IMG/VR virus record: IMGVR_UViG_3300015263_000627
Length of the DNA stretch: 64,000 nucleotides
Source: a virus
Reading direction: 5' to 3' (one strand)
Positions 5,499 to 51,287 of this stretch are shown piece after piece. The notes beneath the pieces are model-generated. The model was not told the origin of the DNA. It saw nothing but the letters and a program-made list of their open reading frames with translations, and did not search any database. Within the stretch, counting starts at the first letter, position 1. Each line of letters starts with the position of its first letter. A program made the position numbers and the translations under genes.

Positions 5499-5968
5499 CC
5501 AAAATAACCGAGAAATGGGATCGCTTTTATCTGGAATTAGCCGAGTTTGTTGCAACTAAACTATCCAAAGACCCTTCAACTAAAGTGGGGGCAGTTCTAG
5601 TAAATTACGATCATAATAAAGAATTTCTTGGTTATAATGGTTTTCCCCGGGGTGTGGACGACGATCCAGCCCGATATGATAATCGGGAATTGAAATACAA
5701 GATGGTTGTTCATGCCGAAGTGAATGCCATCCTCAAGGCAGGATTTTATTCTAAAGGTGGAACATTATATGTTTATCCAGCTTTTTCCCTTCCTCCAATT
5801 TGCAATGAATGTGTAAAGTATGCAATTCAAAGTGGAGTCAAGGAAATTGTTGGATTTGTTCCGACTCCTGAAGATGCCGAAAGAGCAAAACGTTGGCAGG
5901 AATCAATTGATATTGCCCGAACAATGTGTGATGAAGCCGGGGTTACTTATAGAGGCGTTGTAAGATAA
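5495..5968 (+). CDS. cd: dCMP deaminase
   Basis: SKDPSTKVGAV, GYNGFPRG, HAEVNAI and P.CNEC zinc motifs. Confidence 0.9.
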   Translation: MTKITEKWDRFYLELAEFVATKLSKDPSTKVGAVLVNYDHNKEFLGYNGFPRGVDDDPARYDNRELKYKMVVHAEVNAILKAGFYSKGGTLYVYPAFSLPPICNECVKYAIQSGVKEIVGFVPTPEDAERAKRWQESIDIARTMCDEAGVTYRGVVR

Positions 5969-10384: not shown

Positions 10385-10696
10385 ATGACAAAAACAGACC
10401 TAATTCGACAAGATGCGCTTGATCACGCCCGTAATGGCGAGTCGATGCGAAATTATGCTCTCATTATTGAGGGCTTCATGGACAAGGGAATCGCGGAAGA
10501 TGACATTCTTCCGCGTGAGAATGTGTTCACCTATAATGCATGGATGGCACAAGGTCGCCGCGTCAAGCGGGGCGAGCATGGTGTGAAGATCACCACGTTT
10601 ATCCCGAAAAAGGATAAAAAGACCGGCGAGAAAAAGGGTGTCCGTCCGTGGATTTCGACAGTGTTCCATGTGACGCAAACGGAGAAGGTAGCGTGA
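10385..10696 (+). CDS. ArdC N-terminal-like ssDNA-binding / antirestriction domain protein
   Basis: FTYNAWMAQGRRVKRGEHGVKI...VFHVTQTE matches the ArdC-N (DUF1738) pattern. Confidence 0.7.
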   Translation: MTKTDLIRQDALDHARNGESMRNYALIIEGFMDKGIAEDDILPRENVFTYNAWMAQGRRVKRGEHGVKITTFIPKKDKKTGEKKGVRPWISTVFHVTQTEKVA

Positions 10697-10962
10697 CAAA
10701 TTTACCGGAACTGTGTTATACGCGCATTCTTGGCGCTGCCCCGGGTCACCGCATGGGCGTGATCAAATGTGATGTATCGGGATATTATCCTTGTGATTAT
10801 GATCAAGCGAAATATTCCGATGAACAAATTGAGGATTGGGTTCGATTGCTGAATGACCGCCTTGGGGTAACCCCGTCGCAACGTTTGGCAATGGAAACTG
10901 GTTCAATGTTTGGTTGGGATGTTCCGGGAGCAAATCCGGATAATTGGAAAGGTCTGAAATGA
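10693..10962 (+). CDS. Conserved MGE-type hypothetical protein
   Basis: LNDRLGVTPSQRLAMETGSMFGWDVPGA motif; GTG overlaps the upstream stop. Confidence 0.6.
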   Translation: MTNLPELCYTRILGAAPGHRMGVIKCDVSGYYPCDYDQAKYSDEQIEDWVRLLNDRLGVTPSQRLAMETGSMFGWDVPGANPDNWKGLK

Positions 10963-11640
10963 CAACGCCTAAGATCAAATGGGTCTGGACAACATCGCGT
11001 AAATTAACCAGTTATGAAAAACGGTTTACCATACTTGAAGATCAGTATGGGGCAAAAGTCGAGTATCATATTACGGATCGTCTGAGTTTTCCGAAAGAAA
11101 AGGAAACGTTCAACGATTTACGCGAGTGTAAAGCATGGGCACAGATGATCGTGGATAGGGATAATTTGATATGAACATACCGAAGGTAAAATGGGTCAAC
11201 CAAAATCCGGGAGCGAGTCCGGATGAAGGTCGTTATTGGGTAAGTTTGGAAGGTCGATTCTCGATTACCCCAAATTTCCGGCATACGATTTACCCGGACT
11301 CTTATACCGTTGTAGATGCTTTACAGCGTCGGGGTCCTGCAATGACTCATGTAACCTTTGATACCATTCGGGATTGTAAGGATTGGGCTAACGATCAGGT
11401 CCGTATAACATTGGAGAATGCACTGTGAAATTTAGTCGTACTTTAAATGATGATGTTATTCGTTTACATAATCTTGAACGAGTATTGGCAGATATGGATT
11501 TTGTAGCGAATGTAAAAAATACTTTTCGAACAGATGCTATAATAGAATCAGTTCGAGAAGAACGAAAATTTGTACAACAATGCTTAGAAGCACAAGTAAA
11601 AGCATTTTACAATGAAGAAACTAAGGATTGGCGATGGTAA
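10959..11640 (+). CDS. Three small coupled hypothetical early ORFs (10959-11174, 11171-11428, 11425-11640)
   Basis: Overlapping stop/start codons. The first two share xPKI/VKW...TF..(L/I)R(E/D)CK.WA, so they are probably paralogues. Confidence 0.55.
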
Positions 11641-13474: not shown

Positions 13475-13600
13475 GGGGATGTAGCTTAAGGTGGTAAAGC
13501 ATCTCAACATTTATTCTTCTAATGATATCGTAGAAGAACCGTCAGATATCGGGCGGTTGTTTAGAAAGATGAGGGTTCGACTCCCTCCATTCTCTGCCCA
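13475..13600 (+). ncRNA. tRNA-like RNA with a bifurcated anticodon arm
   Basis: Acceptor GGGGATG/CATTCTC, D-arm GCTT/AAGC and T-arm GAGGG-TTCGACT-CCCTC. The anticodon arm is replaced by two hairpins. Confidence 0.65.
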
Positions 13601-14261: not shown

Positions 14262-14344
14262 GGGCAACTGGCATATGGAAACTGGTACACCTAACGGTTT
14301 TAGAAACCGCGCTTTTGAGAGTTCGAGTCTCTCGTTGCCTACCA
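14262..14344 (+). tRNA. tRNA-Leu(UAG)
   Basis: Loop TTTAGAA; long variable region; CCA. Confidence 0.85.
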
Positions 14345-14348
14345 ATAC

Positions 14349-14433
14349 GTGGCTGTGGGATAAGTTGAAATAGGAACACACAGCGGGCTTAAAATCCGTT
14401 CCTTTGCGAGTTCGAGTCTCGCCAGCCACACCA
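14349..14433 (+). tRNA. tRNA-Leu(UAA)
   Basis: Loop CTTAAAA; CCA. Confidence 0.88.
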
Positions 14434-14438
14434 ATAAT

Positions 14439-14523
14439 GTCGTTGTGGGCTAATTCGAAATAGGCACACGTTACTGCCTCAAAAGCAGCGCCTTTGCGGG
14501 TTCGAATCCCGCCAACGACACCA
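14439..14523 (+). tRNA. tRNA-Leu(CAA)
   Basis: Loop CTCAAAA; CCA. Confidence 0.88.
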
Positions 14524-14662: not shown

Positions 14663-15570
14663 TATAAAACACAAGTAAACTTTATAACTTTGGCGGTTTA
14701 GCGTCGTCAGGATAGCTTGGAGTGATCCAAGTTAAAGCTGTGTATCCTATTAAACAGCGCCCGCAAGGGTCCATCTAAACAAGCCTAGTCGTCCCCGCGA
14801 GGGGCTATCAGGGATGATGGTAGTATATATGACGACAAGGTGTGGTCCGAAAGGATAGGGGTAAGCCTCTGCGAAAGCAAGCCCAACCTAATATCCCGCA
14901 AGGATAGCCACACATGCAAACTTGTCTAGTAGGTATCGACAATAGGTAGTTACAGTAATCCGATGCTTCGCGGCAAAGGGTGGGTAGCATGATCTTCGGG
15001 AGAACGGACCCCGCTATTCGGAGGGGAGACGTATATCCTAGAGTCAGGTTGAGTAACTCGCAAGGTGAAAAACAGTTGGTGTGTTGTATTTTGTTTCCCA
15101 AAAGGAAGCGAAGCAACCGAACCAGCACATCAAAATAGGTTTAGAAAAAATGATCCATGGCGGATCATCTGCATATGAAGCAGAAAGGATTGGTTCGATT
15201 CCAATTTTTTTCACCAGAGAAAACGCAAAGTCTGGTTCGATGTTGATTGAGAAATGGTCTAAACCAATGGCGGCTTGCCGTAACATTGGCGATGAAGCCC
15301 CGCAAGGGTGAAGTTGTTATTTGATCGAATTATCCTAATGGGTTAGCGCCCATGAATAGCTCGCAAGGCTAAGGGTGAGATGATCGGTGAGTAGATCAAC
15401 ATGACAAGTGAAACGCTACACTTCAAAAAAAGCGACCTTGTTACACTACATGCCGAAACGGTATGTGGATGAAAGGGAACCCTTATAGTGCGCTAGTCGC
15501 CGCACCCGAGCAGGGTGGGGGATAATCCTAGAAGGTGTAACGCTAAACCCTGTAGTCTCAAGGGTCTAAA
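14646..15570 (+). ncRNA. GOLLD-like giant ornate RNA (about 900 nt); ends approximate
   Basis: Many GNRA-capped helices (CCGCAAGG, CTCGCAAGG). The blocks GGTGTGTTGTATT...CAAAAGG...CAGCACATC, CCTAATGGGTTAGCGCCC and CTGTAGTCTCA resemble GOLLD from memory. No credible ORF; sits inside a phage tRNA array. Confidence 0.72.
15144..15216 (+). tRNA. tRNA-like element embedded in GOLLD, anticodon AUG (His-type), acceptor GAAAAAA/UUUUUUC
   Basis: D-arm GATCC/GGATC; TCTGC-ATATGAA-GCAGA; ATTGG-TTCGATT-CCAAT; A73-CCA. Confidence 0.7.
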
Positions 15571-19647: not shown

Positions 19648-19975
19648 TCGGAAGCGTAGATGATCGCGCTACGGTGAGGAAAGTCGGGTCTGCTAATACA
19701 ACCGTAATGGGTAACGCCCATCCACAGTAATGTGAGGATTAGAGCTACAGGGACGATCCTATTAAGTTAGGGATGAAACGAGCAATCTCTACGGGCAGCA
19801 ATCTCAAGTTCTCCGAAGGGTATGTATTCCCATCACTTAAATGTGTGTTAGGTAATGGTAGAGAGCAAAGACCTAAATGGAAACGTTTGGGCAAGTCAAA
19901 TGATCGTCATATATTGATTATAATACGACCATTTCTATAATCAATATGAACAGAAACCCGCTTATTCGCTTCCGA
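19648..19975 (+). ncRNA. rnpB: RNase P RNA (phage-encoded, compact, lacking P13/P14)
   Basis: P1 TCGGAAGCG/CGCTTCCGA. CR-I GAGGAAAGTC and CR-V AACAGAAACCCGCTTA form P4 with a bulged U. P9 TGGGTAACGCCCA, GATGAAACG, GCAGCAA, L15 GGT, GNRA-capped P18 and P19 are present. Confidence 0.9.
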
Positions 19976-20068
19976 GAAATACTTACCGGGATAAATACCA
20001 TGTATATCCCGGCATGGCTCGTCCGGGATTTTTTATTTTAGAGCCATAATAATAAAGAGGTAAAATAC

Positions 20069-20371: not shown

Positions 20372-20431
20372 TTTTATCACGTAAAAATTTACTAATACCG
20401 GTTGGGGGGACCACAATCCCCCCAATCATTT

Positions 20432-20507
20432 GGTTCCATAGTTTAACTGGATAAATCACAACCCTGCGAAGGTTGAGTTCCGTGTTCGAGTCACGGTGGA
20501 ACCTCCA
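20432..20507 (+). tRNA. tRNA-Arg(GCG)
   Basis: CAACC-CTGCGAA-GGTTG; CCA. Confidence 0.83.
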
Positions 20508-20511
20508 TTTC

Positions 20512-20593
20512 GCGCATATATCCCCTCACGCTTCGAACGTGAACAAAGGTAACTGGAAGGAAGATACGGGTTCGAATCCTGTTATGCGCTCCA
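20512..20593 (+). tRNA. D-armless tRNA-Arg-like RNA (UCG)
   Basis: GCGCATA/TATGCGC T-CCA; TCACG-CTTCGAA-CGTGA; normal T-arm; no D-arm; D-loop-like GTAACTGG 3' of the anticodon arm. Confidence 0.7.
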
Positions 20594-20926
20594 TTTAAAT
20601 CTGCCAGCATGGAATTTGCGATGGCAATTTGCACAAAAAACAATACACTTAGAAACTTCGTCTAATATACGTTCTTTAGTGCTACCATTAGCTAATAATC
20701 TTGATATGGTATTATCTTTTATTTTTGGGTTCATATGATGAAAATCTAAACAAGAAAAATCATCTTCACCACAACGAACACAATTATATTGAGGCATAAT
20801 TTCTTCTCGAAACCATTTCTTTTTAGCTTGTTTGTTTGTGAAGGAACGTTTATAAACTTTTTTTTTATTTCGTATGTAAGATTCATGAGCAGCTTGTTTC
20901 TGTTTTATAGGGTCTTTATAAGGCAT
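20582..20926 (-). CDS. HNH endonuclease (homing-type) antisense in the tRNA array
   Basis: CVRCG...LDFHH...KCIVFCANCHRKFH; AGGAG RBS; CTAAATA upstream. Confidence 0.85.
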   Translation of the reverse strand: MPYKDPIKQKQAAHESYIRNKKKVYKRSFTNKQAKKKWFREEIMPQYNCVRCGEDDFSCLDFHHMNPKIKDNTISRLLANGSTKERILDEVSKCIVFCANCHRKFHAGRFKWSA

Positions 20927-20997
20927 AGTATCTCCTATCAAATGATACTATCTATTTAGGGTTCAAATTTTCAAAATTTTTTGAACCATCAATTCAA

Positions 20998-21073
20998 CTG
21001 GGTGAATATCGTGCTAGAAGATTACTTGCCTTGGAAGCAAGTGGACGAGGGGCAGAGCCTCGCACCCAGACCA
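20998..21073 (+). tRNA. tRNA-Pro(UGG), T-loop GGCAGAG
   Basis: Loop CTTGGAA; C1-G72 and A73. Confidence 0.87.
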
Positions 21074-21167
21074 ATTCGTGTTATTAAATATGCCCGCTAG
21101 TTAGCGGCTCGTATCAGTCCATGGCTCTGATCGAAACGAGAAAACAACAATAACACGAATGCTATAA

Positions 21168-21242
21168 TGCCGTTTAGTTCAATGATAGAACGTCACGCTC
21201 TGAACGTGAATGTCGGTGGTTTGATTCCATCAACGGCAGCCA
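21168..21242 (+). tRNA. tRNA-Gln(CUG)
   Basis: Loop CTCTGAA; U1-A72 and G73. Confidence 0.88.
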
Positions 21243-21243
21243 A

Positions 21244-21378
21244 TTAGGCGTTGAGAATAGCTTTTCCGCCTAGATATGCCAATGCTCCAATACCAACAAT
21301 CGGCAATGTAGCAATATATACTAAGCCGATGAATGGAGCCGCAAAGAATAAAGCAATATTTTTAATTTTGGTACGCAT
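21244..21378 (-). CDS. Small membrane protein, antisense to the tRNAs
   Basis: MRTKIKNIALFFAAPFIGLVYIATLPIVGIGALAYL; GGAAG RBS. Confidence 0.5.
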   Translation of the reverse strand: MRTKIKNIALFFAAPFIGLVYIATLPIVGIGALAYLGGKAILNA

Positions 21379-21518
21379 AATTTTCTTCCTTTCTACTGGA
21401 CTCGTTGCATAATTTGTGCCAACGAATGTCCTCCAAAATATAGAAGGAATTGACTTACCAAACAACATATGGTATAATAGCGTATAACAAAATTATTCGA
21501 AGTATGAAAAAGATATAT

Positions 21519-21593
21519 GAACTAGTGCCGGAATTGGCTACGGGGCGGTCTGCAAAATCGTTTATAGGGGTTCGAACCCCCTCTAGTTCTCCA
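21519..21593 (+). tRNA. tRNA-Cys(GCA)
   Basis: Loop CTGCAAA; U73-CCA. Confidence 0.88.
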
Positions 21594-21598
21594 ATAGT

Positions 21599-21680
21599 AC
21601 CCATGTAACCGAGTCTGCCTTCTAAGCAGTTAATCGTAGTGGAGTTGAAAACGGGGGTTCAAATCCCTCCATGGGTTCCA
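21599..21680 (+). tRNA. D-armless tRNA-Arg-like RNA (UCU)
   Basis: ACCCATG/CATGGGT T-CCA; CTGC-CTTCTAA-GCAG; TAGTGG bulge 3' of the anticodon arm. Confidence 0.7.
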
Positions 21681-21752
21681 GTTAGAGGTTTTTTATGTAT
21701 CAAAATATCAATGAATATATGCAATATGGTTTTTATTCTGGAAGAACTATTT

Positions 21753-21828
21753 ACTCGCGTAGTTCAGTGGAAAGAACGACAATTTCCTAAATTGTTGGTC
21801 CCCGGTTCGATCCCGGGCGCGAGTTCCA
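21753..21828 (+). tRNA. tRNA-Arg(CCU)
   Basis: Loop TTCCTAA; CCA. Confidence 0.88.
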
Positions 21829-21832
21829 ATTC

Positions 21833-21917
21833 GCCTTAGTATCGGACCTGTTGTTCTAAACAGGCAAATAATAAACCGTAATGGACTATAGGGGTTCGAT
21901 TCCCCTCTAAGGCTCCA
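21833..21917 (+). tRNA. D-armless tRNA-Arg-like RNA (UCU-containing 8-nt loop)
   Basis: GCCTTAG/CTAAGGC T-CCA; CCTGT-TGTTCTAA-ACAGG; TAATGG bulge. Confidence 0.62.
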
Positions 21918-21932
21918 TTAGAAAGGTAAATC

Positions 21933-22547
21933 ATGGTTACGCTAATTGGTGACGTTCACGGCAAATATGGTGAATATAAACAAATTATAAAAAGGCATAA
22001 AAATTCTATTGCCTTGGGAGATATGGGACTTGGATTTTTCCGTTTTGATCATCATGAAGGGAAAATTCCAATGGCTAATCCTCCGTATGATTACATGGTG
22101 AAATATAATGCTCGATTTATTCGAGGCAACCATGATAATCCGGAAGTTTGTAAAAAACATACCCAATGGATACCGGATGGAACTATCGAAGGTGATATGT
22201 TCTTTCTTGGCGGGGCATTTTCAATAGATCATATGTATCGTCTTGAAGGGTATAGCTGGTGGAAAGATGAAGAATTGTCACATGAAGAATTTGACAAGAT
22301 CATCGATCCCTACCGGAAAGCTAAACCAAGAATTGTGATAACTCATGATTGTCCTTTGCGGATGGTTCCTTATGTTGGTTCACACCATATTAGGGACAAT
22401 TCGAGAACTCAACAATTCCTGCAATCATTGTTCGAGTTTCATCAACCCGAATATTGGTATTTTGGTCATCACCATAAGTCATGGAAGATGATTTCAGATA
22501 AAACAACATTCCGATGTTTAGCTGAACTTGAGACATTGGAAATCTAA
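21933..22547 (+). CDS. Calcineurin-like metallophosphoesterase
   Basis: GDVHG, LGDMG, RGNHD, ITHDCP and FGHHH motifs. Confidence 0.9.
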   Translation: MVTLIGDVHGKYGEYKQIIKRHKNSIALGDMGLGFFRFDHHEGKIPMANPPYDYMVKYNARFIRGNHDNPEVCKKHTQWIPDGTIEGDMFFLGGAFSIDHMYRLEGYSWWKDEELSHEEFDKIIDPYRKAKPRIVITHDCPLRMVPYVGSHHIRDNSRTQQFLQSLFEFHQPEYWYFGHHHKSWKMISDKTTFRCLAELETLEI

Positions 22548-50392: not shown

Positions 50393-50926
50393 TTAAGAAA
50401 TTTTAATCTGATTTATAAGTTCTATTAATTCTTCATCTGAATGATTATTTTTAGCAAGATTAACACCATAGGCAACAAATTGGACATTTCCTTTTACATA
50501 ACCAATTTTAGAATTTTTTCGATCTAATGAAGCTGATAATAATGTAGAATGTTGATAGGTCTTTCGTAAATTAATTGGAATATTAGAAAGCGCACATAAA
50601 CCATTTTGTTTGTTCCATAAGGATTTTAAATATGCTTCATCAATGTTTGAGGTTCCATACTGTCTTTCTCTATCTCTGATTTTTTTAATATAATAATAAA
50701 AATTTACATCAAATTGGCGATTAGCCTTTCCATATGTATTTCCTTTAGATCGTTCACGTAACTTATTTCTTTGATCTTGAGACATATTTTTATTTTTATA
50801 TGTAGCGGTGCAAGATAATGAACAGAAAAAATAATTTCTACCATTTTTTATTTGACGATTATATTCATTGAATGGTTTATAAAAATCTTTTTTACATTCA
50901 GTACAATTTAGCTTGACTTCGGACAT
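50393..50926 (-). CDS. Homing endonuclease (HNH-like) next to the tmRNA
   Basis: C..C...FCS..C at the N-terminus; CALS...ASLDRKNSKIGYVKGNV...NLAK. Confidence 0.75.
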   Translation of the reverse strand: MSEVKLNCTECKKDFYKPFNEYNRQIKNGRNYFFCSLSCTATYKNKNMSQDQRNKLRERSKGNTYGKANRQFDVNFYYYIKKIRDRERQYGTSNIDEAYLKSLWNKQNGLCALSNIPINLRKTYQHSTLLSASLDRKNSKIGYVKGNVQFVAYGVNLAKNNHSDEELIELINQIKIS

Positions 50927-50946
50927 AATATCTCCTATACTAAATA

Positions 50947-51270
50947 GAGTTGCAGATGATGACTTCTGGATGAAATACTTGCGGAACAGGGGGTGCGACT
51001 CCCCCTCACCTCCACCATAAATCCATTAGCTCCATATTTATATATTTTGTGGATTTATGAAGGGGGTGCGTAGGATCGCCCGGGGTAAAGTAAAAAGGAA
51101 CGAGTTTGTCGGTAAGGTCTAAGCCGTAATAGAGACACAAAGTAAAGGACAACGATTATGTTGCTCCATTGTGGGATTTTGCATCCCTTCGTGAACCGGC
51201 GCTTGTCGCCTAATTAGCGGGGATAAATCCTACGGGGTTAGGGGGGAACCTGTCACAAAAATCCCCCCAT
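50947..51270 (+). ncRNA. ssrA: Circularly permuted two-piece tmRNA; tag (A)DNDYVAPLWDFASLREPALVA
   Basis: The acceptor piece ends AGGGGG-TGCGACT-CCCCCT-CACCTCC-A-CCA (51017). An intervening stem TAAATCCA/TGGATTTA follows. The coding piece starts GGGGGTG (51062, G3-U70)-CGTAGGATCG. Tag ORF 51148-51213. Confidence 0.88.
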
Positions 51271-51287
51271 TTATTATTGAGGAAATA

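What the first reader, a model, noticed from the sequence alone, without database searches (positions are those of the whole stretch)
20512..21917. Family of D-armless tRNA-Arg-like RNAs with a D-loop-like bulge moved to the 3' side of the anticodon helix
Seen in three copies (20512-20593 UCG, 21599-21680 UCU, 21833-21917 UCU-containing 8-nt loop). Each has a perfect 7-bp acceptor, U73-CCA and a canonical T-arm but no D-arm. The 5' linker instead pairs with the variable region (CCU/AGG, CGA/UCG, CGG/CCG) around a GUAACUGG, UAGUGG or UAAUGG bulge resembling the D-loop GG motif. The sequences differ but the architecture is shared, and all are Arg-type, which implies selection on structure. Inference: a rearranged L-shape in which the bulge supplies the D-T elbow contact, acting as a functional tRNA or as a decoy for anticodon nucleases or tRNA sensors.
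Basis: partly seen in the sequence, partly recalled or inferred. Interest (0 to 1): 0.75.

Follow-up and report, generated by a model that had tools for sequence, protein, structure and literature searches.

The report
Rewired non-cloverleaf phage arginine tRNAs
Three genes in this phage's tRNA cluster are very probably working arginine tRNAs whose D-arm is not a hairpin but is rebuilt from strands lying on either side of the anticodon arm, a non-cloverleaf design shared by hundreds of phages, mostly missed by gene finders, and not found in any paper I could search.

Summary
Windows 20512-20593 (UCG), 21599-21680 (UCU) and 21833-21917 (UCU in an 8-nt loop) each have a perfect 7-bp acceptor stem, U73-CCA, a normal T-arm and anticodon arm, and no D hairpin.

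They belong to a large family: about 170 distinct genes were fetched from viral contigs and cultured phages, including phiCbK, PAK_P2, Atu_ph04, Vibrio, Streptomyces and Microbacterium phages.

- **Helix:** three bases of the 5' linker pair with three bases just 5' of a D-loop-like UARYUGGA motif. Covariation supports the two core pairs: 127/127 and 126/127 are Watson-Crick, with four pair types.
- **Tertiary pair:** a Levitt-like 15:48 pair covaries (A15 with U48; G15 mostly with C48).
- **Identity:** the base after GG is A in arginine members, matching the ArgRS determinant A20. It is U in a small isoleucine sub-family.
- **Anticodons:** they are almost all arginine types and complement the canonical arginine tRNAs in the same arrays.

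Best reading: functional elongator tRNA-Arg with a re-threaded core. Pseudogene and pure-decoy readings are disfavoured. Expression and charging are untested. Copy 3's 8-nt loop has no counterpart elsewhere, so its role is open.

Earlier agents of this scan found the same family many times on other DNA.

The parts
20512..20593 (+). Copy 1: rewired tRNA-Arg(UCG), 82 nt including CCA. It starts 4 nt after canonical tRNA-Arg(GCG).
   Evidence: Family model R1 gives 76.9 bits, E 2e-18. Parts are laid out. ARAGORN and Rfam (gathering threshold) do not call it.
20522..20524 (+). Copy 1, strand a (CCC, in the role of nt 23-25). It pairs with 20547-20549 (AGG) as two C-G pairs plus one C.A mismatch.
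   Evidence: Register comes from the model alignment. C.A at this third pair recurs in 21 of 79 family members with a 7-nt 5' linker.
20547..20557 (+). Copy 1, strand b (AGG) followed by the D-loop-like motif UAACUGGA (U13, A14, A15, G18 G19, A20 equivalents).
   Evidence: It contains the same AACUGGA as the D loop of the neighbouring canonical tRNA-Arg(GCG) at 20432-20507. The last base before the T stem is U, fitting A15:U48.
21599..21680 (+). Copy 2: rewired tRNA-Arg(UCU), 82 nt including CCA. It starts 5 nt after tRNA-Cys and lies downstream of a strong sigma-70-like promoter at 21450-21478.
   Evidence: R1 gives 71.5 bits. Rfam tRNA gives 35.6 bits with the D-arm deleted. Promoter match is 11 of 12 with a TG extension.
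21608..21612 (+). Copy 2, 5-nt strand AC-CGA. CGA pairs with UCG (21634-21636) and AC pairs with GU (21644-21645).
   Evidence: Helix a/b and helix c both covary across the family (39/42 and 41/42 paired for helix c, with several different pair types).
21634..21645 (+). Copy 2: strand b (UCG), the 7-nt D-loop-like bulge UAGUGGA, and strand c' (GU).
   Evidence: G15 goes with C48 here: the linker ends in C at 21652. AGUGGA is also the D loop of canonical tRNA-Arg(CCU) at 21753-21828.
21833..21917 (+). Copy 3: rewired tRNA-Arg-like gene, 85 nt. It has UCU in an 8-nt loop (UGUUCUAA, 21852-21859) and an 11-nt A-rich bulge (21865-21875). It starts 4 nt after tRNA-Arg(CCU).
   Evidence: R1 gives 54.9 bits, E 2e-12. 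Acceptor stem, T-arm, CGG/CCG helix (21843-21845 with 21876-21878) and UAAUGGA motif are intact. No other member has an 8-nt loop.
20582..20941 (-). HNH homing-endonuclease gene converging on copy 1 and overlapping its 3' end by 12 nt. This is context, not part of the tRNA.
   Evidence: PHROGs HNH endonuclease families, E 1.5e-23; no Pfam hit at E 0.01 or better.

Best explanation
The three elements are genes for elongator arginine tRNAs of a phage-borne family whose core is wired differently from the cloverleaf.

**Layout.** After the acceptor stem and U8-A9, the chain runs straight into a short strand that plays the part of the 3' strand of the D stem (nt 22-25). It then forms the anticodon arm. 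Only after that come the partner strand (role of nt 10-12/13) and a D-loop-like segment U-A-R-Y-U-G-G-A (roles of 13-20). A linker ending in Y48 leads into the T stem. In copy 2's sub-type the two bases after GGA pair back to the 5' linker, so the D-loop-like segment is a bulge in a 5-bp helix stacked on the anticodon stem.

**Shown here.** The layout, its conservation, the covariation of the helices and of the 15:48 positions, the amino-acid-specific base after GG, and the complementary anticodon sets are all shown.

**Inferred.**
- G18-G19 dock on the T loop and U8-A14 and 15:48 form, so the usual L-shape results.
- The transcripts are cut out of the polycistronic array by RNase P.
- Host ArgRS charges them through A20, C35 and U/G36.
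- They read CGA/CGG (copy 1) and AGA/AGG (copy 2).

Copy 3 is a divergent paralogue. Its extra loop base leaves its decoding behaviour open: normal AGA reading, +1 or four-base reading, or loss of function.
For: **1. Family size.**
- A1 holds 73 distinct members. A2 holds 99 model hits (84 distinct), scoring 47-82 bits.
- Cultured carriers that I read or scored with the family model are PAK_P2, Atu_ph04, Vibrio D260, Streptomyces Mildred21, Microbacterium A3Wally and phiCbK.
- BLAST alone also points to phiPsa397, SOVA965, DC31 and Brevundimonas jumbo phages.

**2. Helix a/b, counted at positions fixed by anchors rather than fitted.**
- a1:b3 is Watson-Crick in 127/127 members.
- a2:b2 is Watson-Crick in 126/127 (GC 74, CG 26, AU 13, UA 12).
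- In the 7-nt-linker group 78/79 are paired at a2:b2, against a shuffle mean of 32 and maximum of 46.
- On the MAFFT alignment 0/500 shuffles reach the observed score, and slid controls collapse from 88% to 37-46% paired. The second set gives the same result.
- a2:b2 has the third-highest mutual information of all column pairs.

**3. Helix c in copy 2's sub-type.** 39/42 and 41/42 are paired, with GC/GC, AC/GU, GA/UC, GU/AC and UC/GA combinations.

**4. The 15:48 pair.**
- A15 goes with U48 in about 119 of 120 parsed members.
- G15 goes with C48 in 9 of 12 members and with G48 in the other 3.
- A15 with C48 does not occur in any real member.

**5. Identity positions.**
- The base after GG is A in 128/135 parsed genes. 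A20 is the main bacterial ArgRS determinant (PMC9976931).
- The six isoleucine-anticodon members have U there in 5/6 and A73 in 6/6. Both are listed as bacterial Ile determinants in the same table.

**6. Anticodons.**
- An anticodon-free scan gave UCU, ACG, CCU and UCG almost exclusively; GCG also occurs.
- Only 11 of 123 rewired genes share an anticodon with a canonical tRNA-Arg in the same locus. Some arrays (L074) have four rewired arginine tRNAs and no canonical one.
- In this window GCG and CCU (canonical) plus UCG and UCU (rewired) cover all six Arg codons. CGA and AGA make up 41% of Arg codons in the long ORFs.

**7. Gene context.** The genes sit 4-5 nt after canonical tRNAs, carry an encoded CCA like their neighbours, and follow a strong promoter.
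Against: - No expression, processing or aminoacylation data exist for any member. No RNA run holds the window.
- The a/b helix is only 2-3 bp. Its third pair is unpaired in about 40% of members.
- RNAalifold does not predict the a/b helix, and the minimum-free-energy folds of copies 1 and 2 are no better than shuffles.
- The 15:48 signal rests on about a dozen G15 sequences from perhaps six lineages, and three of them have G48.
- No 3D model could be made, so the elbow contact is inferred.
- Copy 3 has an 8-nt anticodon loop and an 11-nt bulge seen in no other member, and it scores lower.
- An earlier check of the same claim on other DNA reportedly made 'part of it fall'. I could not see which part.
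Confidence: 0.8

Rival explanations
1. Pure decoys or mimics: RNAs that look enough like tRNA-Arg to soak up host anticodon nucleases or tRNA sensors, but are neither charged nor used in decoding.
For: - Phage tRNAs are known to counter tRNA-cleaving defences (PMC10264068, PMC11464382 and PMC11555353, listed).
- The odd core could escape or trap such enzymes.
- A3Wally carries both a canonical and a rewired tRNA-Arg(ACG).
Against: - A decoy for an anticodon nuclease needs only the anticodon arm. Here the acceptor stem, CCA, T-arm, U8, A14, GG, the 15:48 pair and the synthetase determinant A20 are all conserved, and the latter switches to U20 plus A73 in the Ile sub-family.
- Anticodons complement rather than duplicate the canonical arginine tRNAs in 112 of 123 cases.
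- I found no arginine-specific anti-phage tRNA nuclease in the papers searched.
Confidence: 0.06
2. A functional tRNA whose rewiring was selected as an escape. It would escape either host nucleases that recognise the D-arm, elbow or variable loop of tRNA-Arg, or homing endonucleases that cut the DNA of canonical tRNA-Arg genes. In the second case the rewired gene is the cleavage-immune allele carried by the endonuclease cassette. This concerns why the design exists and is compatible with the best explanation of what it does.
For: - HNH endonuclease genes abut the rewired gene in this window (it overlaps copy 1), and in PAK_P2, Mildred21 and A3Wally, and lie near it in D260.
- Across all loci, 8/172 rewired genes lie within 50 nt of a detected HNH-like ORF, against 28/1426 canonical tRNAs.
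- Earlier agents' notes on other genomes describe cassettes that split the ordinary tRNA-Arg gene. These are unchecked leads.
Against: - The enrichment is weak (about 2.4-fold, small numbers) and vanishes at 600 nt. Most members have no detected endonuclease nearby.
- No remnant of a broken canonical tRNA-Arg was seen at 20400-22000.
- No nuclease with the required specificity is known from what I read.
Confidence: 0.2
3. Decayed pseudogenes of ordinary tRNA-Arg genes that lost the D-arm.
For: - ARAGORN ignores them, and Rfam scores two of the three below threshold.
- Copy 3 has an irregular anticodon loop and a long bulge.
Against: - The same layout is kept in about 170 distinct sequences from phages of Proteobacteria and Actinobacteria, with compensatory changes in every helix.
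- Acceptor and T stems are perfect in all three copies.
- For copy 3 alone this reading keeps perhaps a one-in-four chance.
Confidence: 0.03

Closest known systems
Canonical class I bacterial and phage tRNA-Arg (Rfam RF00005; for example the window's own tRNA-Arg(GCG) 20432-20507 and tRNA-Arg(CCU) 21753-21828; from general knowledge, E. coli argU and T4 tRNA-Arg)
   Same: It has the same 7-bp acceptor stem, 5-bp T stem with UUCRANY loop, 5-bp anticodon stem with C32-U33-NNN-A37-A38 loop, and Arg anticodons. U8, A14, G18 G19, A20 and an R15:Y48 relation are all present. CCA is encoded, and the genes sit in the same arrays.
   Different: There is no D hairpin between nt 9 and 26. The two strands of the D-stem equivalent lie on opposite sides of the anticodon arm. 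The D-loop-like segment follows the anticodon arm and leads into the T stem, so the molecule cannot be drawn as a cloverleaf.
D-armless mitochondrial tRNA-Ser(AGY) of animals, and the engineered D-arm-less mini HisT of E. coli (PMC9427863; PMC11551756)
   Same: A short linker joins the acceptor stem to the anticodon stem. Both show that translation can accept tRNAs without a D hairpin.
   Different: Those RNAs have lost the D loop altogether and lack the D/T elbow contact, giving a Y-shape according to PMC11551756. The phage family keeps a GG-containing D-loop equivalent, U8/A14 and 15:48 covariation. It occurs in phages of bacteria, not in mitochondria.
Class II tRNAs (Leu, Ser, bacterial Tyr, Sec) with a long variable arm
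   Same: There are 15-25 nt between the anticodon stem and the T stem.
   Different: Class II tRNAs keep a normal D-arm, and their extra region is a self-contained hairpin. Here the extra region pairs with the 5' linker and carries the D-loop motif. Two class II tRNAs matched my motif by chance, and their normal layout set them apart at once.
allo-tRNAs and other tRNAs with novel cloverleaves (8/4 and 9/3 acceptor/T branches; PMC5389517)
   Same: They are unusual tRNA shapes found by mining genomes and metagenomes, some of them in phages.
   Different: allo-tRNAs change stem lengths but remain cloverleaves. This family keeps the 7/5 stem lengths and changes the order of the strands.
Permuted and split tRNA genes (Cyanidioschyzon merolae, Nanoarchaeum; from general knowledge)
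   Same: tRNA segments are encoded in a non-standard order.
   Different: In those cases processing restores a canonical cloverleaf. Here the 5' and 3' acceptor strands are in normal order, and nothing suggests re-joining. The mature RNA itself would have the new topology.

Membership tests
Canonical cloverleaf tRNA (Rfam RF00005) | 7-bp acceptor stem, discriminator base and 3' CCA | tested here: met
   All three copies have 7/7 Watson-Crick pairs, U73 and an encoded CCA.
Canonical cloverleaf tRNA (Rfam RF00005) | T-arm: 5-bp stem with a 7-nt UUCRANY loop | tested here: met
   The T-arms are ACGGG/CCUGU, GGGGG/CCCUC and AGGGG/CCCCU, with UUCGAAU, UUCAAAU and UUCGAUU loops.
Canonical cloverleaf tRNA (Rfam RF00005) | Anticodon arm: 5-bp stem with a 7-nt loop and U33 | tested here: inconclusive
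   Copy 1 meets it. Copy 2 meets it with a U.U at the 27:43 position. Copy 3 has an 8-nt loop, or alternatively a 6-bp stem with a 6-nt loop.
Canonical cloverleaf tRNA (Rfam RF00005) | D-arm hairpin (nt 10-25) between nt 9 and nt 26 | tested here: not met
   Only 7-8 nt lie between the acceptor and anticodon stems. Rfam aligns copy 2 by deleting the 15 D-arm positions. RNAalifold on 73 members predicts no D-arm.
Canonical cloverleaf tRNA (Rfam RF00005) | Score at or above the family's gathering threshold (29 bits); called by tRNA finders | tested here: inconclusive
   Copy 2 scores 35.6 bits. Copies 1 and 3 are not reported, even at E up to 10. ARAGORN calls none of them here or in five carrier loci.
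Canonical cloverleaf tRNA (Rfam RF00005) | Aminoacylation and decoding on the ribosome | not testable with these tools
   Support is indirect only: A20/C35 identity positions and complementary anticodon sets.
Rewired phage tRNA-Arg family (model R1, built here) | Helix between the 5' linker (3 nt before nt 26) and the 3 nt just 5' of the D-loop-like motif | tested here: met
   The pairings are CC(C)/(A)GG, CGA/UCG and CGG/CCG. Family covariation is shown.
Rewired phage tRNA-Arg family (model R1, built here) | D-loop-like motif U-A-R-Y(0-2)-U/N-G-G-A after the anticodon arm | tested here: met
   The motifs are UAACUGGA, UAGUGGA and UAAUGGA.
Rewired phage tRNA-Arg family (model R1, built here) | R15:Y48-type relation between the third motif base and the last base before the T stem | tested here: met
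   Copy 1 has A/U, copy 2 has G/C and copy 3 has A/U.
Rewired phage tRNA-Arg family (model R1, built here) | Model score well above that of canonical tRNAs | tested here: met
   The copies score 76.9, 71.5 and 54.9 bits, against 33.2 bits or less for canonical tRNAs in the window. Copies 1-3 were in the seed alignment, so they match partly by construction. Independent members score 47-82 bits.
D-armless mitochondrial-type tRNA | Loss of the D stem and D loop, with no D/T-loop contact | tested here: not met
   The GG motif, A14 and the covarying stem equivalent are retained.
Class II tRNA (long variable arm) | Normal D-arm plus a self-paired variable hairpin | tested here: not met
   There is no D-arm, and the extra region pairs with the 5' linker rather than with itself.

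The most novel reading that the evidence does not exclude
The re-threaded core is an adaptation in phage-host or phage-phage conflict. It would give a fully functional tRNA-Arg that is invisible to nucleases recognising the canonical D-arm or elbow of tRNA-Arg, or to homing endonucleases that cut canonical tRNA-Arg genes. In this phage the scaffold has additionally been turned, in copy 3, into an expanded-loop decoder that reads AGA plus a neighbouring base or shifts frame. This is in a genome where another agent reports a separate four-base-codon tRNA switch.
Probability: 0.2. Interest if true: 0.92.

Novelty: new variant of a known kind. Interest (0 to 1): 0.85.

Why it matters
- **Textbook rule.** Textbooks and recent papers state that all bacterial-type tRNAs are cloverleaves and that arm length is the only structural variable outside mitochondria (PMC11551756; the review PMC7609411 lists no such case). 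This is a natural, widespread tRNA family that keeps the tertiary contacts but changes the order of the strands. It would show that the L-shape can be reached through a different secondary structure.
- **Annotation.** Phage tRNA inventories miss or mislabel these genes. Mildred21's copy is annotated tRNA-Phe(gaa), and the copies in phiCbK, D260 and A3Wally carry no annotation although neighbouring tRNAs do. Studies of phage codon usage against tRNA content therefore undercount arginine tRNAs.
- **Use.** The family offers a ready-made alternative scaffold for tRNA engineering. It also provides a test case for how ArgRS, RNase P, EF-Tu, modification enzymes and the ribosome read tRNA shape.
- **Testability.** Cultured carriers such as phiCbK/Caulobacter and PAK_P2/Pseudomonas make it directly testable.

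Tried and rejected
- **Whole genome:** none is held for this window.
- **Relatives through the neighbouring phosphatase gene:** one partial locus only, with no rewired tRNA examined there.
- **Look-alike stretches in other scanned genomes by place:** none.
- **BLAST of the 1.6-kb region against cultured phages at E 1e-5:** it hit only canonical tRNAs. Short queries were needed.
- **Bacillus phage FADO:** the hit was an ordinary class II tRNA-Ser, not a member.
- **RNA evidence:** no RNA holder was listed for the window. Laying four DNA runs showed no variant inside the three genes, so there was no micro-diversity to use.
- **Thermodynamic folding:** single sequences of copies 1 and 2 fold no better than shuffles. 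RNAalifold does not recover the short a/b helix.
- **Search for relatives of copy 3's 8-nt loop:** three contigs matched, and all have 7-nt loops starting with G32.
- **Homing-endonuclease association:** it turned out weak.
- **Pfam:** it gave nothing for the HNH-like ORF. PHROGs did.
- **Literature:** seven full-text searches and four papers read found no description of this layout. The library lacks most subscription journals, so absence is not proven.
- **Rejected readings:**
  - an intron in the variable region, because the insert carries conserved, covarying, identity-bearing positions;
  - a class II variable arm, because it does not self-pair;
  - a permuted gene restored by processing, because the acceptor strands are in normal order.
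Full report
**Setting.** The window comes from an uncultured T4-like phage. Positions 13.4-23.5 kb hold a dense array of about 30 tRNA genes, a GOLLD RNA, an RNase P RNA and few proteins. The finding concerns three elements in this array that ARAGORN does not call.

**Observation.** Reading the sequence and running a simple descriptor (7-bp acceptor stem, T-arm) confirmed the three elements. Each has these features:
- a perfect acceptor stem, U73 and an encoded CCA;
- a normal T-arm;
- an anticodon arm with a UCG, UCU or UCU anticodon;
- only 7-8 nt between the acceptor and anticodon stems;
- 15-25 nt between the anticodon stem and the T stem.

No other element in the 64 kb has this layout. 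Rfam's tRNA model reaches threshold only for copy 2, and does so by deleting the D-arm and inserting 19 nt in the variable region. Exact parts are listed. Each element starts 4-5 nt after the CCA of a canonical tRNA, which is the usual spacing in this array. Copy 2 lies downstream of a near-consensus promoter.

**Relatives.**
Nearly all matches were complete tRNA-like genes of the same layout.
- BLAST with members found the layout in cultured phages of Pseudomonas (PAK_P2, phiPsa397, P. putida phages), Agrobacterium (Atu_ph04), Stenotrophomonas, Limnohabitans, about 290 Vibrio phages, Caulobacter (phiCbK and relatives), Brevundimonas, Streptomyces and Microbacterium.
- I read or scored the copies in PAK_P2, Atu_ph04, D260, Mildred21, A3Wally and phiCbK.
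- ARAGORN misses all of these.
- Records that annotate neighbouring tRNAs leave the genes blank. Mildred21 calls its UCG gene tRNA-Phe(gaa), a misreading of the CUUCGAA loop.
- In one genome for each of 185,579 prokaryote species, a specific UCU-type pattern matched only nine times. All nine were on MAG contigs, and the five I examined carry large tRNA arrays. The family is therefore essentially phage-borne or carried on mobile arrays.

**Structure.**
- *Helix a/b.* On a plain MAFFT alignment of 73 distinct members (A1), the three bases before nt 26 pair with the three bases just 5' of the motif U-A-R-Y-U-G-G-A. The two outer pairs are paired in 72/73 and 71/73 sequences with four pair types each, and the third in 47/73. 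No shuffle reaches the observed covariation, and sliding the partner by one to three columns drops pairing from 88% to 37-46%.
- *Unfitted count.* Counting at positions fixed by anchors rather than fitted to pairing gave 127/127 and 126/127 Watson-Crick pairs. The middle pair has the third-highest mutual information of all column pairs.
- *Second set.* Another 84 distinct sequences, aligned with model R1, behave the same way.
- *Helix c.* In the sub-type of copy 2 (8-nt 5' linker, 9-nt 3' linker), the two bases after U8-A9 pair with the two bases after GGA. These are paired in 39/42 and 41/42 members, with several different pair types.
- *15:48.* The third base of the motif and the last base before the T stem behave like the Levitt pair. 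A goes with U throughout. G goes with C in 9 of 12 members and with G in three. A with C never occurs in a real member. All three window copies obey this rule (A/U, G/C, A/U).
- *Invariant positions.* U8 and A14 equivalents are invariant or nearly so.
- *Limits.* RNAalifold recovers the acceptor, anticodon and T arms and no D-arm. It does not predict the short a/b helix, which therefore rests on covariation rather than predicted energy.

**Topology (inference).** The chain order is 1-9, then the equivalents of 22-26, then 27-43, a short A-rich bulge, then 10-13, 14-20, a linker, 48, and the T-arm. Relative to a cloverleaf this re-joins 9 to 22, 43/44 to 10 and 20/21 to the variable region. From general knowledge of tRNA crystal structures, these three junctions connect residues that are neighbours in the L-shape. 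This makes the design geometrically plausible, but I could not model it.

**Function.**
- *Anticodons.* The anticodon-free scan gave almost only Arg anticodons: UCU about 46, ACG 29, CCU 6 and UCG 5. GCG also occurs.
- *Arg identity.* The base after GG is A in 128/135 parsed genes. A20 is the main determinant of bacterial ArgRS, together with C35 and U/G36 (PMC9976931).
- *Ile sub-family.* Members with GAU, UAU and CAU anticodons, in loci L053, L156, L184, L200 and L204, have U at that position in 5/6 and A73 in 6/6. Both are listed as bacterial Ile determinants in the same table. The segment therefore behaves as position 20 of a real D loop.
- *Anticodon sets.* Rewired and canonical arginine tRNAs in one locus share an anticodon in only 11 of 123 cases. 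Some arrays carry only rewired arginine tRNAs.
- *This phage.* Canonical GCG and CCU plus rewired UCG and UCU cover all six Arg codons, and CGA plus AGA make up 41% of Arg codons in the long ORFs.

This fits working isoacceptors better than decoys. Expression and charging remain untested: no RNA run holds the window, and four DNA runs show no variation in the genes.

**Copy 3.** Everything but the anticodon loop and the bulge is intact. The loop UGUUCUAA has one base too many, or else forms a 6-bp stem with a 6-nt loop. None of about 170 other members shows this. A targeted scan found only 7-nt GUUCUAA loops. Copy 3 may be a recently altered paralogue or a frameshift or four-base reader; I cannot tell which.

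**Why the design exists.** This is open.
- HNH endonuclease genes abut the rewired gene here (PHROGs E 1.5e-23, overlapping copy 1) and in four cultured phages.
- Across all loci the enrichment is weak: 8/172 against 28/1426 within 50 nt.
- Escape from tRNA-directed defences is conceivable, but nothing I found supports it directly.

**Literature and earlier notes.**
- Seven full-text searches and four papers read gave no description of such a tRNA.
- A 2024 paper states that all known bacterial tRNAs are cloverleaves (PMC11551756).
- The 2020 review of non-canonical tRNAs lists no such case (PMC7609411).
- Earlier agents of this scan reached the same reading on more than thirty other stretches. 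Those are unchecked AI notes, and one carries the remark that part of the claim fell in a later check, without saying which part.

Noticed in passing
window 14262-14344, 14349-14433, 14439-14523 (+): Three tandem 83-85-nt tRNA-like genes have Leu-type anticodon loops (UAG, UAA, CAA by my reading) and A73. They lack the long variable arm of tRNA-Leu and have 21-23 nt where the D-arm should be. In two of them a 5' GGAAC/GGC segment can pair with GUUCC/GCC just after the anticodon arm. ARAGORN calls only the third, as tRNA-Gly(gcc). This may be a second rewired design.
   Followed up: partly
L014, L062, L068 and about 20 other loci; Nitrincola phage 1M3-16 (4490-4554), Salicola phage SCTP-2 (331422-331481): A second, GC-rich arginine layout has a 5-6-bp helix (for example CCUGAC/GUUAGG) enclosing the anticodon arm. 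It has a UCCUUAGA-type bulge, then UGGAUGG directly before the T stem, and no U8/A14. It is unannotated in the two cultured phages.
   Followed up: partly
L156:7511-7591 and 5764-5853, L204:6041-6121, L200:7359-7439, L184:692-772, L053:4321-4400: An isoleucine sub-family of the same rewired layout carries anticodons GAU, UAU and CAU. It has GGU instead of GGA in 5 of 6 members and A73 in all six, and it co-occurs with rewired arginine tRNAs on the same contigs.
   Followed up: partly
window 20582-20941 (-): An HNH homing-endonuclease gene converges on copy 1 and overlaps its last 12 nt. The same convergent overlap is seen at L118:10585-10659 with 10657-11022.
   Followed up: partly
L124:1495-1570 (Streptomyces phage Mildred21, NC_042008 91367-91442): The deposited record annotates a rewired tRNA-Arg(UCG) as tRNA-Phe(gaa). 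Escherichia phage KookSpook labels a weaker relative (40 bits) as tRNA-OTHER.
   Followed up: yes
window 13475-13595 (+): Rfam's tRNA model matches a 121-nt stretch end to end (42.6 bits) that ARAGORN does not call. It may be a tRNA with a long insert.
   Followed up: no
window 15074-15564, 19648-19979, 50909-51271 (+): Rfam matches above threshold to GOLLD RNA (180 bits, with a tRNA-His(aug)-like call inside it), bacterial RNase P RNA class A (139 bits) and a permuted/alpha-type tmRNA (70 bits), all in a phage.
   Followed up: no
window 20945-21165 (+): About 220 nt between the HNH gene and tRNA-Gln contain no called gene. They hold a 6-bp hairpin ACUUGC/GCAAGU with an anticodon-loop-like CUUGGAA loop. 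No Rfam match.
   Followed up: no
L209, L210, L212, L216 (Acidobacteriota MAG contigs of 45-307 kb): The few 'genome' hits lie in arrays of 15-25 tRNA genes within a few kb. In the two I checked (L209, L212) the rewired tRNA-Arg(UCU) fills the gap between two called tRNAs. I did not determine whether these contigs are bacterial, prophage or mis-binned phage.
   Followed up: partly
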